This document shows, piece after piece, positions 47,148 to 64,000 of a stretch of DNA of 64,000 nt. Position numbers and translations under genes: made by a program. Under the pieces are notes generated by a model, which saw only the letters and a program-made list of their open reading frames with translations, had not been told where the DNA came from and did no database searches. The stretch's first letter is position 1, and every line of letters starts with the position of its first letter. Origin of the DNA: Octopus vulgaris. Lineage: Eukaryota. The stretch covers positions 81,468,001-81,532,000 of the forward strand of contig OX597825.1 of assembly GCA_951406725.2 (NCBI GenBank), read 5' to 3'.

Positions 47148-47849
47148 TACCTACACACATATATATGTATAGCTGTATACATACGTAAATGTATATATGT
47201 GTGTGTATGTATGTATATATATCTAAATTAAATCTAAATGATATAAAGCAGAGACAAACAGATAGATGAAATTACACGATATACACACCTCTGGTTTGTA
47301 ATGAACCAAGGCAAATTAAAGCGAAGCGACAGTTCTTATTGCACCATTAAAAGTCTTTCTTAACGGGCTAACAATGGACGACGGCAGATGAGGCGGGAAG
47401 TACAGAAGACGGAGTGGTTAACGTTTGTAATAAGCTTGTCGAAAGTTCGAATATTGCCAACGTCAGCGGAAAACGTTTCCTGACATTATTGAAAGAATAC
47501 GGTGTTGTAGAATCGTTGACCAAAATGCAGTGCTGTTATTTTCGTTCTCTTTTTCTTCCGAACTGGCAACTCATTGACATCGTCCTTTTTTTTTCTTGTA
47601 TAACATCATCTGTGAGTATGTTGAGTATGTTAATGAAGCTGTATATACACGTATATGCGTATGGTGCATGTTACGAAGTTCGTGTGTGTGTGTTTGTGTG
47701 TAACTAAAACATTTATGATTTCTGTTAGCATGCTTTCCACGTTTCGATACGTGGTGAAATAATATACGTGAAAATAGTTTATGTGGTTAGATTTAGTGTC
47801 TATTTTTAGCATATTGGCGAAGAAATTTTTTCTTTTCACCCTTATAGAA

Positions 47850-47965
47850 AAATAAAAGACGAAGACAGGTGTATGAGCAACAAGCAAATATATTAGTTTG
47901 ACGCTCGGGAAGAATGCAAAAGTCTTTTACGTTTCGGGCCTATGCTCGTCAACAGAAAGGAATAA
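47850..47965 (-). mobile_element. Penelope-like short terminal fragment with variant hammerhead (47924-47959)
   Basis: aagacgaagacaggtg..aacaa..a.at.tattagt family; minus strand cuuu CUGUUGA C GAGC auag GCCC GAAA CG UA aaag. Confidence 0.7.
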
Positions 47966-48044
47966 GAAGAAATAAACAGGGAGGGAATGAAACAAAAACG
48001 TGTTTATTTCAACGGTCCAGCATGTATACATATACATACATACA

Positions 48045-48082
<38 letters not shown>

Positions 48083-48113
48083 CATACATATACATACACA
48101 CACACACACTACA

Positions 48114-48195
<82 letters not shown>

Positions 48196-48271
48196 CACAC
48201 ATATATATATATATAGAGAGAGAGACAGAGAAAGAGAGAGAGAGGGATGCATAAATACACACACATACACG

Positions 48272-48403
48272 TGTTCCTTGCTAAGAAAGAGCATAGGCTC
48301 GAAACGTTAAAGACATTTTTACTTCCCGTGCTTTATACTAATACATCTGTTTGTTGTCTATACCACCTGTCTTCGTCTTCTGTGTTTTTTGTGAATTCCC
48401 CCA
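48272..48403 (+). mobile_element. Same family in opposite orientation; degenerate hammerhead at 48277-48312
   Basis: cuug CUAAGAA A GAGC auag GCUC GAAA CG UU aaag ... actaatacatctgtttgttg..cacctgtcttcgtctt. Confidence 0.7.
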
Positions 48404-48633
48404 TATATATTATATATTCGTGTGTGTGTTGGTGTGCATTATATATAAATACTACATACTGTATATTAATTATTTTGTATACTAGGTGTATTATGTGTAC
48501 TACATGTTATGTGTGTGTGTGTGTGCATTAGGTGTTTAAATATTGCTGTATGTAGGTGTAAAAACCAAAGGAAGGCTATCTCCTATATAAACCACGCATG
48601 CATATCATTATGTACATGAGCGTATGTATGTAG

Positions 48634-48725
48634 TGTGAATTTACAAAAAAAAAAGATGAAGACGGGTGTGTAAACAACAAACAGATGTATTACTTTAACG
48701 GTCGGAAAGTGAGAAAGTCTTTTAT
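48634..48725 (-). mobile_element. Same family, truncated at the hammerhead
   Basis: aagatgaagacgggtgtgtaaacaacaaacagatgtattac..aaagtctttta. Confidence 0.65.
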
Positions 48726-49119
48726 GCATGTATGTATGTATATATCTGCCTATCTGGCACTCTCTCCCGATATATATAGATAACATTCCTGTTTAACAAT
48801 TAGACATCTCTCATCATTATACTCCAGTTGAAAAACTTATCTAGAGATATTTATGCAATAATGGATAAGCAGTGAACATATTTTAGTTTTGAAATCAAGT
48901 GTGACATCAAAAAAGCTCATTAGCAGATCTGAAAAAGTTAGAACAAAGTTAGAATCAAAACGAATATATTCATATCTTCAATTAAACACCTTTTTAAAAG
49001 AGGACCCTTAACCCTTCTACACACGATGCATATACATACGTATGTATACAAACATACATACATACATACATACATACATACATACATACATACATACATA
49101 CACATGCATACATATATAA

Positions 49120-49151
<32 letters not shown>

Positions 49152-49196
49152 ATATATATATATAGGTATGCATACACACATATATATCTATCTATG

Positions 49197-49229
<33 letters not shown>

Positions 49230-49369
49230 ATTTATGTATGTTGTGTGTATGTATACATGTACATATACTTTGAGATGTATGAATCCAAATTCAAATATAT
49301 TTTCCGTGTTTACATCATTACAATGGCTATACACGCTCACATTTAATGTATATTTGTGATATATATATG

Positions 49370-49434
<65 letters not shown>

Positions 49435-49499
49435 AAATATATATATAAATATAAATGTATATACATATATATATCTGTATAAATTATATATATATACAT

Positions 49500-49534
<35 letters not shown>

Positions 49535-49904
49535 CATACATATGCATATGTATTTATGTGTGTGTGTAAATGTGTATGTGTATGAGTGTGCGTGTAACTG
49601 ACCGTATATACCATTATTAACGACATTTCCTCTAAGCAAGTCTAATTCTTTTACAGGTAAGGAAATCAAGGAAGAAACTCAGAGAATTGAAGTAACGTGT
49701 TTATTAGCAAGAATTAGAAACACATGGATTTGATGGAAGAATGTGATATCGTTCGGGAAAACAAAGGACAAAGCAAAACAACTAAAACACAGATTTAGAA
49801 ATGGTAGAATTAGCAGACAAATGTAGAGTACCAGTGTCGTCACAGGTCGAAGATCAACCACGGGTCACATGTAAGAGAGTAGTTCTTATTAATCTCTTGC
49901 AAGA

Positions 49905-50072
49905 CGGTATTTCGTTTGTCTTTCGTTCTGAGTCCAAATTCCGCCGAGGTCGACTTTGCCTTTCAGCCTTCGAGGGTCGTTAAATTAAATACCAGTTGCG
50001 TATTGAGGCCGATCTAATCGACTGGCCCCTTCCCCCAAAAGTTTGGGCCTTGTGCCAACAATAGAAAAGATT
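49905..50072 (+). mobile_element. SINE family B (second tail type), 5'-truncated
   Basis: ggtatttcgt..ttctgagt.caaattccgccgaggtcgactttgcctttca..gggccttgtgcc..agaaaaga. Confidence 0.8.
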
Positions 50073-50373
50073 AATCTCCTGCAAGGCATCGCAACGGTTT
50101 CGTCGTGATGTTTTCGTAGCAGCCTGCTCAGCCGTGTCAGGTCAATTTCCTGACGCTCATATTTTTGGGGGTTTTTTATCTTGTAAACTGCCCAAGCCTG
50201 AACACCGTTTTCCAAAAGACCCAAATAAGATGGAATGGACATCTTAGTTGTATCTTTACATGTCCGAGTAGTTCTTCTATTTAGGGCGAACTCGGTTAGG
50301 CAGAGAGAATTGTTTGTCAGTAAAAGAAGGTACCAGGTATTGCTTAAAAGCATTTCTACAAAATAAGTAAATA

Positions 50374-50783
50374 GGCACAGGAGTGGCTGTGTGGTAAGTA
50401 GCTTGTTTACCAACCACATGGTTCCGGGTTCAGTCCCACTGTGTGGCACCTTGGGCAAGTGTCTTCTGCTATAGCCTCGGGCCGACCAAAGCCTTGTGAG
50501 TGGATTTGGTAGACGGAAACTGAAAGAAGCCCGTCGTATATATGTATATATATATATATATGCGTGTGTGTGTTTGTGTGAGTGTGTTTGTTCCCCTAGC
50601 ATTGCTTGACAACCGATGCTGGTGTGTTTATGTCCCCGTTACTTAGCGGTTCGGCAAAAGAGACCGATAGAATAAGTACTGGGCTTACAAAAAGAATAAG
50701 TCCCGGGGTCGAGTTGCTCGATTAAAGGTGGTGCTCCAGCATGGCCGGAGTCAAATGACTGAAACAAGTAAAAGAGTAAAGAG
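50374..50783 (+). mobile_element. SINE family A, full length, with 10-bp target-site duplication
   Basis: TSD taagtaaata at 50364-50373 and 50784-50793. Confidence 0.93.
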
Positions 50784-50929
50784 TAAGTAAATAAATAAAT
50801 AAAATATTGTGATGCTTCCCTGGAAGCTGCTTGTCCAAAAGCGACTCGACCAGCGTAGATAACAAGAATCGCATTTGCTACGAAAGAAACGCTCACTCTG
50901 CAAAGCCAGAGTTAATGGAATCTCACGTA

Positions 50930-51060
50930 AGGCGGTGAGCTGGCAGAACCGTTAGCACGCCGGGCGAAATGCTTTGTGGTATTTCGTCTGCCGTTACGTT
51001 CTGAGTTCAAATTCAGCCGAGGTCGACTTTGCCTTTCATCCTTTCGGGGTCGATAAATTA
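50930..51060 (+). mobile_element. SINE family B, 5' half
   Basis: ggcggtgagctggcagaaccgttagcacg..gcctttcatcctttcggggtcgataaatta. Confidence 0.88.
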
Positions 51061-51439
51061 ACCCCCCCCATATATATACCTAGGTAGCATTGATTTTATT
51101 ATATTTTCTTCATTGTTTTACTCCAACTCTAAATTATTCATACCTCACACCCATCCCTGACCCCCTCACCAGGAAGCATATTTTTCCCTCCGTATTCATT
51201 CCTTGTTTCTAGTAGCTCGTTTCATAATTGTTTATTTGTATTTCTTTTTACTGTTCCATATTTTGCCAAATTATTTCCTTGTCCTGTTATCGAGGGACAA
51301 CTTTGTATCTATATTTGCATTCATAAGAGATGGCATTAGCAGAGTTTTCTTTCTTTTAACATGATGTATTAGAGGACTTAAGGAAAACATGTCTATCTGC
51401 GTTATGTGGCAGTATACGAGTATATGTGAGAGTTCAACA

Positions 51440-51495
<56 letters not shown>

Positions 51496-51901
51496 AATCT
51501 ATCTATCTTTCTATGTATCTATCTATCTATCTATCTATATAATATGACATATATATTGTATATATATATAATATATACTGGATATATAGGATTATATATA
51601 TATGTGTATATATATATAAATATAAATATATATATATAGGTGTGTATATGTTGTATATACGTACACATACACCCACACGCATACACTCACACGAATACAC
51701 TCAGACGCATACACTCACACGCATACACTCACACGCACACGCACAACGCACGTACAAATCCACACACATATGCATAACAGCTTGCAAACACATACATATA
51801 CAAATACACTTAGGAGCTTAGCTACACATATATGTGTATACATACATATATATATACATAGATACATATATATATATATGTGTACATGTATATGTATATA
51901 T

Positions 51902-51962
<61 letters not shown>

Positions 51963-52324
51963 TGAATATATAAGTGATCACATTGAAATCGTTGGGAGAT
52001 GTGATGACCTCGATTGCATCTTTGGTGATAATGGCAATGATTAAAGATTCTAAATGTGTTGTTGCTGCTGCAAGTGCTGCTGGTGCCGTTGCTGCTGCTG
52101 CAAGTGCTGCTGGTGCTGCTATTGCAGATGATGATGATGATGATGATGATGACGATGTTGAGATGAGTCTGGTGATGAAGAAACTAATGACAAGTGTGGT
52201 GATGATATCCATAATTATAATGATGTTGATAAATATGATGATGACGAGGAGGTAGGAGGAGTAAGAGGCTGAGGGGTAGGAAGAGGAGAACAAAGATGGC
52301 GGGAATGACAAATTCAATAATAGA

Positions 52325-52678
52325 TGGTGATGATGATGATGATGGTAATGATGATGATGATGGTGATGATGATAATAATGGCGATAAGGAAGAGGAAATG
52401 GAGGACGGGAGGATGGGAATGATGATGATAATGATGGTGATGAAGACATTAATGACGCGAATGATAAGTTTGATAATAGATGATGATGATGATGATGGTG
52501 ATGATGATGTTGATGATGATCATGATAGTAATAATGATGATGGCAATGATGAAGATGATGATAATGATGATGATGTTGGTGATGATAATCATGATAGTGA
52601 TGATGGTGATGATAACGTTGATGATGTTGATGATGATGACGATGATGATGATGGTGATGATAATGATGATGATGATGG

Positions 52679-52740
<62 letters not shown>

Positions 52741-52840
52741 GTGATGATGAAAATAATAAAAATGATGATGATAAAGATGACGATGATGATGATGGCGATG
52801 ATGATGATGATGGTGATGATGAAGATGGCGATGATGATAT
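52325..52840. repeat. Imperfect (GAT)n array
   Basis: Direct inspection; source of the poly-D/poly-M ORFs. Confidence 0.95.
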
Positions 52841-53774
52841 TAAGAGCGATTATGATTATGAAAAGACGACGGTAATGATGACGGATGGTTGCGATAGGTA
52901 GCGATAGCGTCGACGGTGGCGGCCACAGTGCTGCCGGTGCTTGTGGCGGCGGAGGCGGTGGCGGCGGCGGCGGCGGCGGTGGAGGCAGTGGTGATTTATC
53001 CGCCCCAAGAAAAGTGGGTAAAGCGGGAAGGATGTCAATCGTCGTGGGACCGTAGACAGGACAGCGCTGTTTGTTAGCAGAGTCGGCAATGGCAGCGGCT
53101 CTTTCGCTCTCCGATCACGTAGGATGATATTATTAGGCGCTAATTCAATCTGCTACTAACACCTAACACTGCCACACTACCACCCATACATAACTGGCAC
53201 ACACACACACACGCGCACGCACGCACACACATACTCACGCATACACACACGGACGCACACACACGTATGCACACACGCGCATGCACTCGCGCATGCACAC
53301 ACACGCATGTACTCGCATATACACACACATACATATACATATACACAAGCACACACAATACACACACATACATATACATATACACAAACACACACACGCA
53401 CGCATGTATACACACGAACAGATAGACGCACACATACACGTACACATACATATACACACGCATATACGCACACACATACACACACACGCATATATATACG
53501 TGCACACACGCACAACCACGTATACAGTCATCTACATCCACGAACACCCACTCACACTTACGTATGCATACCCCAACTCCCGCATATATATACACACCCA
53601 CACGGACGTACGTAGAAACACACGCTCCCACATACACTCGTATAGAAACATCTACACACACAGCCACAAACACGCACTTACACACATACATGCACACAAA
53701 TACACACCAACCCTTGCACGTGAGTTCGTGGACGCGTGTAAACACACGCGCAATTACACATACATGTATCCACG

Positions 53775-53833
<59 letters not shown>

Positions 53834-54551
53834 ATATACATATATATATATATACATACATATATATATAAATATATACACACCTATGCTGACTTATATA
53901 GAAACACTCGCTGACACATACATGCACATAGACAAACACATACGCACACATACACACACACGTACACATACACACACGCGTACGCATATGTACTCTTATA
54001 CCTGTTCATGGATACGAACGTCTAAACACTTACATACGCACCTGCTCATACACATTCACATACGCTCTCCTTTACACGTACACAGTCACGTTAATATATA
54101 TATATATATATACAGATACACACACACACTCACACGCACATATGTATATATATACACACACATTCACATATACACATCTATACAAACATCTACGTACACA
54201 TACACGTCCCTTCATACAAATATTTAAATACATACATACGCACACATACGCATACAAACACAGATAGATGCACATGTGTACCAACATCGATGTACACATT
54301 CACACGCACAAACACGTGCACATACACATATATACACACCTACACGCCGACCCCGCGCTGTACACATACGTGTATAGACTAACATACACACATTCAATTA
54401 CATTCACGCAAACACACACAAACGCATTCTTTTGCATATGCGTACACACATAAAATTTTACCATAATCCTTTGTATGCCATTTCCATTATCTCTAATAAC
54501 GAGACCACAACTAACTCAACCTTCAAAATCACTCCACCAACATATACACAA

Positions 54552-54604
<53 letters not shown>

Positions 54605-54609
<5 letters not shown>

Positions 54610-54805
54610 AGAGTTTACGAAAAAAACAAAAGACGAAGACAGGTGGTGTACAAAACAAACAGATGTATTAGTATAACGCTCAGAAATAGAAAAAATCTTT
54701 TACGTTTCGAGCCTACGCTCTTCTACAGTAAGGGACACAGATAAAAAAACAAGGAGAGAAACAAGGAGAGAAAAAAATGTGGGTAGTGGCTAACGATCTA
54801 TTATG
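54605..54805 (-). mobile_element. Penelope-like terminal fragment in (TA)n with variant hammerhead (54697-54732)
   Basis: tagggagagtttacgaaaaaaacaaaagacgaagacaggtg...; minus strand cuua CUGUAGA A GAGC guag GCUC GAAA CG UA aaag. Confidence 0.75.
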
Positions 54806-55260
54806 CATTATATATGTATATATAATTTAAAATAATCAGGGTGAAAAATTGAATATTAATTTGATTAATATCAATTTAAAACCAGTGGTCTAGCATATAG
54901 AAAAATCTGAGGGTTCAGAAAAATTATATTACATACATATAAGAGGGATGACCACTAAATTTTCTTGAGAACATTCCTTTCTTTGTGGTAAGATCATGGG
55001 GGGCAACTTCTAGCATAATTGATGTCCACTTAGTGGTCACAGATTTTTGTCAGTGAACAGGTCGCGGTCTTAAAGCGACGAAAATATTTTGACAAATTAA
55101 ACTTAAATGTTGAAGTGAATCGAATGGCTTTTGTGTGTTTCTTAAATGGCTTACGAACACCTTCCACGCTGCAATTGTTTTCGTTTCAGCACACGATCTC
55201 AGATCAAATCACTTGCTATGCAAGTACATCTCTGTAAATCTCTTATATATATATATATAT

Positions 55261-55450
55261 AGCTAATCCAAACAAGAAAGCACAAAAAAACACAACAACG
55301 CGAGGACGTGGAACAAATATAGTATTATTGGACGCTCAGGAAAGAAGGAGGGTTTAACGTTTCGAGCGGAGCTCTTCGTCGGAAACATAGGAAAAGGAAA
55401 GACCCAGAGAAGGGAAGACAGAGGGAAAAAATCGCCAACGGTACACATTT
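55261..55450 (-). mobile_element. Related Penelope-like terminal fragment with variant hammerhead (55352-55386)
   Basis: Minus strand guuu CCGACGA A GAGC ucc GCUC GAAA CG UU aaac; shares tatta..gacgctc.g.aa with the 47.9 and 54.7 kb copies; flanked by (TA)n. Confidence 0.7.
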
Positions 55451-62994: not shown

Positions 62995-63956
62995 AAATTT
63001 GACGGCGCCAATATGACTTCTCATTCGAGTTCTTGAATCGCGACTTTGGTCATATTGGCAATGTGAGGACGGGATTTGTCGTGTTGTAGAAGAACGCCAT
63101 TCCGCTTATTCGGTCTCATTTGCTGAACTGCTTCGTTGAGTTGGTGCAGTTGTTGAACGTAGAGCTCTGCATTGAGTGTTTGGTTGCGCTCAAGCAGTTC
63201 GTAATGAATTATGCTTTCCCAACCCCACCATACACACAACATGGTCTTTCGAGGATGAAGGTCTTGTTTAACTTGCGGTGTTGCTTGTCTGTCGACGCTG
63301 AGCCATTCTTTTCGTTGCTTCGCTTTGACGTAAAAACACAATTTTTCATCGCCAGTGACAATGCGGTAAAGAAAACGCAGTTTGTGACCATGTGTTGAGT
63401 GATGTCGAACGAGAAAACTGGCGGCGATTGTGAATTTTTGTTGTTTTCGGTCAAAGTGTGTAGCACCCAAGCGCCAAGTTTCTGAGCCTTGCCCATTGAG
63501 TGAAGGTGGTTCACCACAGTTCTTTTTTTCATTGCATTCCATCCGCACCGCCAATTCTCTCGTCGTTTGGCATGGATTTCGTGAAAAACTCAATTGGTCG
63601 ACCGGTGTGTAATCCGTCCTTGAGGTCAAGATTCCCATTTTTGATGCGCGAAGTTCAACGGCGGGCGATACTTTGAGGCATTGCTCCTTCTCCATACACA
63701 GCAAAAATCGCTCAAACATGTTCGGTGGCTTTAATACCTCGATTAAATGCAAAAACAAAATGGTGTCGGAAATGCTCAGTTTTGTCCACTTGACATTCCA
63801 TTCTAATGATCTGAAAATACACAAATATCAATGAAATCAAAATATTAAAACATACTATCTTACAGGGCAAAATATTCTCTTTTAAATAACATCAAACATT
63901 TTGCCAATGCGCTTTTAAATTTGAAAAAAAAAATAACGCTCATGAATTATTCCTAA
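62995..63956 (-). mobile_element. Mariner element, 3'-truncated transposase pseudogene with 5' TIR
   Basis: TA-ttaggaataattcatgagcgttattt TIR; ATG at 63801; KLGAWVLHTLTE, RFLYRIVTGDEK, HPRKTMLCVWW, IIHYELL, VLLQHDKSRPH; frameshifts; ends before the third catalytic Asp. Confidence 0.92.
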
Positions 63957-63971
63957 TATATATATATGTAT

Positions 63972-64000
63972 ATAGGGAGAGTTCACGAAAAAAACAAAAG
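63972..64000 (-). mobile_element. Start of another copy of the 54605 family
   Basis: tagggagagttcacgaaaaaaacaaaag after TA-rich DNA. Confidence 0.7.

What the first reader, a model, noticed from the sequence alone, without database searches (positions are those of the whole stretch)
47924..55386. Family of ~36-nt hammerheads with a non-canonical core and compensatory stems
Seen: four motifs share stem I-core-(extra nucleotide)-GAGC loop GCUC-GAAA-CG-UH-stem I (GCCC in the first copy): 47924-47959 (-, CUGUUGA), 48277-48312 (+, CUAAGAA), 54697-54732 (-, CUGUAGA) and 55352-55386 (-, CCGACGA). Helix I covaries (cuuu/aaag versus guuu/aaac), the helix II loop varies (auag, guag, ucc), and helix III is reduced to the palindrome ACGU. 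Two separate copies have U at the normally conserved A6. Inference: A6U may be the family consensus rather than decay, i.e. an ultra-minimal dimer-dependent variant spread by a Penelope-like element that favours (TA)n. Strict CUGANGA searches would miss it.
Basis: partly seen in the sequence, partly recalled or inferred. Interest (0 to 1): 0.72.

Follow-up and report, generated by a model that had tools for sequence, protein, structure and literature searches.

The report
Active retrotransposon hammerhead with A6U core
A very abundant jumping-gene family in this animal genome, its young intact copies included, carries a tiny hammerhead-shaped RNA motif in which one normally fixed core letter is U instead of A while the rest has been kept, so it likely still cuts itself slowly (untested) and is missed by the standard search pattern.

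Summary
The four motifs are real. They are 3' ends (pseudo-LTRs) of Penelope-like elements (PLEs): three of a family with a four-base helix II loop (A), one of a sister family (B). A6U is family A's consensus, not decay: 18,170 U, 228 A and 532 C/G genome-wide, the minority letters at neutral-mutation levels. All 33 motifs in 20 stretches around long RT-GIY-YIG frames have U6; 13 stretches hold two about 4.5 kb apart. Across six subfamilies 62 of 154 flank columns changed but 0 of 15 unselected hammerhead columns; only N7 and N17, free in hammerheads, changed. The motif therefore stayed under hammerhead-type selection after losing A6. The fold, extra nucleotide, ACGU palindrome and PLE link are published (Cervera and de la Peña 2014). 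I found no A6U hammerhead in print, but could not read Lünse 2017. Cleavage is untested. This scan noted A6U in PLE hammerheads of other genomes (shark-like) before. Verdict: new variant of a known kind.

The parts
47842..48025 (-). Family A PLE 3' end, old subfamily, 5'-truncated, next to microsatellite
   Evidence: blastn to natural copies, 83% identity; sequence
47924..47959 (-). min-HHR motif, core CUGUUGA (U6), decayed helix II (GCCC)
48271..48407 (+). Family A PLE 3' end, nearest the N7=G subfamily, decayed
   Evidence: (87% identity), tree
48277..48312 (+). Decayed min-HHR motif, core CUAAGAA, seen in no other fetched copy
48645..48722 (-). Tail-only family A copy whose 5' end lies within 2 nt of the predicted cleavage site; no hammerhead
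54612..54805 (-). Family A PLE 3' end, N7=A subfamily, followed by (TA)n
   Evidence: (39 other places at 90-97% identity over most of the query)
54697..54732 (-). min-HHR motif, core CUGUAGA; position 6 at 54725, N7 at 54724, predicted cut between 54701 and 54700
   Evidence: 5,686 exact matches of this core with its helix II
55258..55443 (-). Family B (three-base loop) PLE-like 3' end
   Evidence: (93% identity)
55352..55386 (-). min-HHR motif, core CCGACGA (A6 kept, U4C), a subfamily trait of family B
   Evidence: about 22 of the 100 listed family B matches (counted by eye)
63956..64000 (-). Tail of a further family A copy whose CUGUAGA hammerhead lies just beyond the window (L341)

Best explanation
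The motifs are minimal type I hammerheads in the pseudo-LTRs of a Penelope-like retrotransposon, and family A carries U at core position 6 in old and young intact copies alike while keeping the rest of the fold, so it likely remains a slow ribozyme that would cut only as a dimer. Shown: the motif lies about 100 nt before the element's fixed 3' end; full elements have it at both ends of a 4.4-4.6 kb unit encoding RT, a Cys linker and GIY-YIG; most genomic copies are 5'-truncated tails in (TA)n. Inferred: in a tandem transcript two motifs pair their ACGU palindromes to build helix III and cut after GUA or GUU, releasing unit-length RNA that may be circularised and reverse-transcribed past one unit. 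Inferred: U6 lowers the rate, by loss of the A6 contacts and by a predicted U4-G5-U6 : A15.1-C15.2-G16.2 pairing that hides the palindrome, so most templates stay uncut or are rejoined.
For: Position 6 genome-wide: U 18,170, A 228, C/G 532, i.e. 96.0/1.2/2.8%, against 96.05/0.89/3.06% at flank T columns (3,720 cells); A6 copies are scattered among U6 subfamilies on the tree. In a sample anchored on the tail only, 95 of the 100 listed have U6, 3 C, 0 A, 1 garbled, 1 without hammerhead (counted by eye). Of 30 loci picked by ORF similarity, 23 show the motif downstream and 22 have U6; the A6 one is the query itself. All 33 motifs in 20 stretches picked for long RT frames have U6; 13 stretches have two, 4,380-4,573 nt apart; 14 of 18 aligned ORFs have no stop; median pairwise divergence is 0.3-0.6% for 16 of 18. 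Between six subfamily majorities 62 of 154 flank columns differ but 0 of 15 pattern-free hammerhead columns (Fisher p 0.0012); the two that differ are N7 and N17. Natural A6C hammerheads cut slowly but detectably (PMC3088659 section 8; PMC7151607). Weak hint of cutting in vivo: 4 of 13 incidental short copies start within -2..+1 of the predicted cut (binomial 0.008 or 0.036 by the range assumed).
Against: No cleavage assay. In a pairwise mutagenesis of a type III hammerhead, all single and double mutants of the CUGA region except the C3-G8 swap had low activity (PMC9901934 passages). Canonical min-HHRs already cut poorly as dimers (PMC4209133). Insertions keep the 100 nt beyond the cut; only 1 of 100 tail-anchored copies starts at it, and an estimated 23 of 6,635 with an A/T-only flank (12 of 30 checked among 57). 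Starts at the cut could also come from RT stalling at the helix base or from TA microhomology. The hammerhead-shaped dimer scores -14.9 kcal/mol against -28.0 for the best predicted dimer of the young motif. The constancy of U6 alone is not significant, because about 60% of flank columns are also constant. At 8 and 10 clusters one constrained column varies (1 of 15, p 0.005), in a 6-copy cluster of which 3 were picked for A6.
Confidence: 0.55

Rival explanations
1. The U6 motif no longer cuts and is kept as a shape or sequence signal, for example for binding the element's RT, for RNA dimerisation through ACGU, or for priming near the 3' end.
For: Insertions include the sequence beyond the cut. 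In 13 of 20 stretches the upstream motif is intact inside the insertion. Mutations in the CUGA turn gave low activity in a type III hammerhead. Naiad and Chlamys PLEs are reported to spread without canonical hammerheads (PMC8557442 passages).
Against: The only positions that changed between subfamilies are the two that hammerhead catalysis leaves free, N7 and N17, and the subfamily majorities at N17 are A or U, not G. A binding role would not be expected to copy this pattern. Some copies start at the cut.
Confidence: 0.22
2. U6 costs little in the cell: a metal ion such as Mn2+ or a protein chaperone restores near-normal dimer cleavage.
For: A6C hammerheads cut well in Mn2+ and poorly in Mg2+ (PMC7151607). 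Cervera and de la Peña propose host factors for min-HHRs. Family A is far more abundant than the mostly canonical family B (21,491 against 930 pattern matches).
Against: No data for U at position 6. Cut-site starts are rare.
Confidence: 0.15
3. A6U killed the ribozyme in one founder, and the dead motif has hitch-hiked since.
For: One founding change explains the fixation. Craig et al. raise the idea that hammerheads may simply parasitise PLEs.
Against: A dead motif should drift like its flanks: 40% of flank columns changed between subfamilies against 0 of 15 pattern-free motif columns. The ORF-picked copies show the same intact helix II and GAAACGU without pattern selection on those columns beyond 3 allowed mismatches.
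Confidence: 0.08

Closest known systems
Minimal type I hammerheads (min-HHR) of metazoan Penelope-like elements (Cervera and de la Peña 2014, PMC4209133; main text parts 1-3 of 4 and supplement file 2 part 2 read)
   Same: Place in both pseudo-LTRs, 4-5 bp helix I, extra nucleotide between A9 and G10.1, G10.1-C11.1 pair, ACGU palindrome instead of helix III, mostly solitary truncated copies, dimer model.
   Different: Published consensus is CUGANGAH, and every alignment row in the supplement part I read has A6 (their descriptor required it, with U3-A8 as the one added core variant). Here U6 is fixed in the family, intact young copies included.
Small PLE-associated hammerhead variants that cleave as dimers (Lünse, Weinberg and Breaker, RNA Biol 14:1499; not held; known from the review PMC6765202 passages, and from recall)
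   Same: Reduced helix III, PLE association, dimer cleavage.
   Different: I could not check whether A6U variants or cephalopod sequences are in that data set.
Natural core-variant hammerheads: A6C of phage Bcep176, U4C of a viroid (PMC3088659 section 8 and passages; PMC7151607 parts 1-2 of 4)
   Same: Change at position 6 (family A) or the same U4C change (family B subfamily); low but detectable activity in those cases.
   Different: Those are rare single cases in non-minimal hammerheads; here the change is U and is carried by more than 18,000 copies.
Neptune/Nematis-type EN+ Penelope-like elements (Craig et al. 2021, PMC8557442, passages)
   Same: Single ORF with DKG motif, RT, CX2-5CXXC linker and C-terminal GIY-YIG; partial tandems; (TA)n targets.
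   Different: Clade not fixed by a tree here; the hammerhead core is non-canonical.

Membership tests
min-HHR of metazoan PLEs | Core CUGANGA | tested here: not met
   Family A is CUGUNGA: 18,170 U against 228 A. Family B mostly meets it, apart from a U4C subfamily.
min-HHR of metazoan PLEs | GAAA box, A15.1-U16.1, H17 and palindromic 15.2-16.2 | tested here: met
   GAAACGU plus A or U in ORF-picked and tail-anchored copies
min-HHR of metazoan PLEs | Helix I of 4-5 bp, helix II opened by G10.1-C11.1, extra nucleotide after A9 | tested here: met
   Pair tallies, column table, folds
min-HHR of metazoan PLEs | Located in both pseudo-LTRs of an RT plus endonuclease element | tested here: met
   13 of 20 stretches hold two motifs 4.4-4.6 kb apart around the ORF
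Hammerhead ribozyme | Self-cleavage 3' of N17, as a dimer | not testable with these tools
   Only contigs were available; cut-site starts are a weak hint
Rfam hammerhead families | Match to an Rfam hammerhead model | tested here: not met
   No hammerhead hit at E up to 10 on 54610-55450; none among the 150 of 734 rows shown for the whole window
EN+ Penelope-like element | RT with DKG motif and C-terminal GIY-YIG in one ORF | tested here: met
   RVT_1 32.2 bits (cut-off 29.6); GIY-YIG E 0.0054, 17.5 bits, below its cut-off of 22.6; DKG, YIDD and YIG motifs in the translation
Neptune clade | CX2-5CXXC linker before GIY-YIG, and (TA)n targets | tested here: met
   CX4CXXC linker; copies end in (TA)n. 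The linker is shared with Nematis.
Neptune clade | Placement in an RT tree with reference PLEs | not tested
   No reference PLE proteins were at hand
Non-LTR retrozymes | Non-coding short tandem repeats with a type I hammerhead in each unit | tested here: not met
   Copies are dispersed 5'-truncated ends of a coding element; the tandem unit seen is 4.47 kb with an ORF

The most novel reading that the evidence does not exclude
A6U is a selected brake on the PLE hammerhead: it weakens the core and lets the core strand pair with the dimerisation palindrome, tuning cleavage low enough that uncut or rejoined RNA is copied, and it has arisen independently in distant animal lineages (here, and in the shark-like genomes of earlier unchecked notes). 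Strict CUGANGA searches would then have missed a class of very abundant, active PLE hammerheads.
Probability: 0.3. Interest if true: 0.72.

Novelty: new variant of a known kind. Interest (0 to 1): 0.52.

Why it matters
What hammerheads do for Penelope-like elements is still open: they may process tandem precursors or merely ride along (PMC8557442). A young, intact, abundant element with a one-letter change in the catalytic core, natural A6 copies and a mostly canonical sister family in the same genome gives a direct one-letter test of how much cleavage the element needs. It also shows that a core position treated as fixed can be replaced for a long stretch of a lineage's history, and that descriptor searches undercount hammerheads: more than 18,000 motifs in this genome fail CUGANGA.

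Tried and rejected
Rfam: no hammerhead match. The RT beside L064 looked like the partner but belongs to other PLE families (Hydra-like by recalled motifs) with canonical long-helix II hammerheads; rejected. Sequencing runs: no RNA holder on record. Contigs of four guessed-RNA runs showed no piled ends or clear joints, and contigs cannot show cleavage. In one search runs labelled organisms A, B and C show all three other letters at N7 and no row at position 6, but 21 rows were not shown, so U6 in related species is only suggested. Metagenome scan: 1 relative from 78 candidate stretches, 49% identical, uninformative. A distinct A6 subfamily inside family A: not supported, as A6 copies are scattered and at neutral frequency; a small A6 lineage among N7=G or the oldest copies is not excluded. 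Core-palindrome pairing as a U6-only effect: weakened, because canonical CUGACGA copies also pair there (P 0.92) and the energy gaps are 0.7-2.6 kcal/mol for the common U6 forms. In one search hits starting at +39 or later were nearly all TA-repeat artefacts and were dropped, as were one copy cut by a locus edge and copies picked by their hammerhead. Papers not held: Lünse et al. and one hammerhead review id; file 1 of the PMC4209133 supplement was not searchable.
Full report
Observation. The four motifs are present as described. The window lies on contig C12 of a 2.8 Gb genome of 227 contigs; earlier notes of this scan call the genome octopus-like, which I did not test. Rfam gives no hammerhead match. 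The motifs belong to two repeat families: family A with a four-base helix II loop (copies 1-3) and family B with a three-base loop (copy 4). A core-blind pattern finds 21,491 exact family A matches and 930 family B matches, with 0 for the reversed controls. Copy 2's core occurs in no other fetched copy and is decay. Copy 4's U4C is a subfamily trait, about 22 of 100 listed family B matches (counted by eye).

A6U is the consensus. With the rest of the pattern held fixed, position 6 is U in 18,170 places, A in 228 and C or G in 532. Flank columns whose subfamily majority is T read T 96.05%, A 0.89% and C or G 3.06% of 3,720 cells, close to 96.0, 1.2 and 2.8% at position 6. The canonical copies are thus at the level of mutation after insertion, and they are scattered among U6 subfamilies on a tree of 125 copies. 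The 80 stretches used for the neutral rates were taken from the listings, leaving out most N7=A copies and the one A6 copy already fetched, so they are not an unbiased sample of position 6 itself. A sample anchored only on the tail (6,635 matches) is unbiased: of the 100 listed, 95 have U6, 3 C, none A, one is garbled and one lacks the hammerhead (counted by eye).

The carrier. Longer copies run upstream through a pyrimidine-rich 3' UTR into a GIY-YIG frame on the same strand. Of 30 loci picked by similarity to that frame, 23 show the motif within 1.5 kb downstream and 22 have U6; the exception is the query, chosen from the A6 set. A protein search scored 135 of 14,072 candidates, many with identical scores and long open frames. 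In 20 stretches fetched around such frames, all 33 motifs have U6; 13 stretches hold two, 4,380-4,573 nt apart, and two adjoining stretches on C6 hold four in a head-to-tail array. Fourteen of 18 aligned ORFs have no stop, and 16 of 18 differ from the others by a median 0.3-0.6%. The protein has DKG, YIDD, a CX4CXXC linker and YIG, with RVT_1 above its cut-off and GIY-YIG below it. This fits a Neptune- or Nematis-type PLE as described by Craig et al. (PMC8557442 passages); I built no tree. Copies share a fixed 3' end about 100 nt past the predicted cut, followed by (TA)n, and most 5' ends lie 40-100 nt before helix II (54 of 84).

Selection after the change. Among 168 family A copies in six clusters, 62 of 154 flank columns differ between cluster majorities, but 0 of 15 hammerhead columns that my patterns left free (Fisher p 0.0012). 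The two motif columns that differ are N7 (all four bases) and N17 (A or U), the positions that hammerheads leave free. With 8 or 10 clusters one column, position 6, differs in a 6-copy cluster of which 3 were picked for A6 (p 0.005). This shows that the motif was kept with U6 in place. It does not show that U was favoured over A, since one column stays constant by chance about 60% of the time.

Mechanism. By the published model, two min-HHRs in a tandem transcript pair their palindromes to form helix III and cut after N17; the unit may be circularised and copied past one length (PMC4209133). The anatomy here fits that model. U6 should slow the reaction: A6C gives low but detectable activity (PMC3088659) with a preference for Mn2+ (PMC7151607), and changes in the CUGA turn lowered activity in a full mutagenesis of a type III hammerhead (PMC9901934). 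I found no measurement for A6U. Folding predicts that U4-G5-U6 pairs with A15.1-C15.2-G16.2 and hides the palindrome: probability 0.61-0.99 in the CUGUNGA forms against 0.10-0.38 in natural A6 copies with N7 A, G or U, but 0.92 in canonical CUGACGA copies through another register. The hammerhead-shaped dimer is far from the best predicted dimer. Most insertions keep the sequence on both sides of the cut, so templates are mostly uncut or rejoined: 1 of 100 tail-anchored copies starts at the cut, and 12 of 30 checked among 57 A/T-flanked matches. Among 13 incidental short copies starting between -28 and +33, four start within -2..+1 of the cut, the window's 48645-48722 among them (binomial 0.008 over 62 positions or 0.036 over 36). 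That is a weak hint, open to RT stalling at the helix base or TA microhomology. Public runs were contigs only and show no ends.

What is known. The architecture and the PLE link are published, with consensus CUGANGAH, and every row of the supplement part I read has A6. Searches for hammerhead with A6U or A6C, hammerhead with A6U (the one hit is a twister mutation), the U6 core spellings (20 of 34 listed, judged by title), octopus with hammerhead ribozyme and octopus with Penelope and Neptune found no report of this variant. Lünse et al. was not held and may contain such rows. Earlier notes of this scan describe A6U in PLE hammerheads of other, shark-like genomes; they are unchecked and I did not test them.

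Verdict. Observation confirmed; interpretation partly supported. A new variant of a known kind: a min-HHR with U6 fixed in a recently active autonomous PLE and kept under hammerhead-type constraint. Most likely a slow dimeric cutter (0.55); rivals are a non-catalytic signal (0.22), cofactor-rescued activity (0.15) and a dead passenger (0.08). Interest 0.52.

Noticed in passing
window 55258-55443 and G000: Family B mixes canonical CUGAYGA cores with a U4C subfamily; several copies are truncated inside the core at a TA microhomology. No ORF was linked to family B.
   Followed up: partly
L044:1400-1630 (+): Copy with a family B 5' flank and helix I strand joined inside the core to a family A helix II and tail; suggests recombination or template switching at the hammerhead.
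   Followed up: no
L121, L123, L127-L129: Other PLE families with long open frames (842-1,091 codons) and a short C-terminal GIY-YIG-like domain, Hydra-like by recalled motifs, carry canonical CUGANGA hammerheads with long helix II and six- to eight-base palindromes upstream of the ORF.
   Followed up: partly
L271-L272 (G000:C6:117390000-117409999): Head-to-tail array with four U6 hammerheads at 4,470-4,477 nt spacing; the three ORFs aligned carry frameshifts.
   Followed up: partly
L273 and related young copies: In the youngest subfamily the reading frame runs past the usual end into the low-complexity 3' UTR, giving variable Pro/Ser/Leu-rich tails.
   Followed up: no
L046, L176, L255, L269: Inverted pairs of family A ends close together, as described for PLE insertions.
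   Followed up: no
window 54697-55386: Copies 3 and 4 lie 650 nt apart on the same strand and share the ACGU palindrome, so a read-through transcript could in principle form a mixed dimer; copy 3 has a broken helix I pair.
   Followed up: no
whole window: Very dense microsatellites (206 tandem-repeat rows) give many spurious miRNA matches below the Rfam gathering scores.
   Followed up: yes
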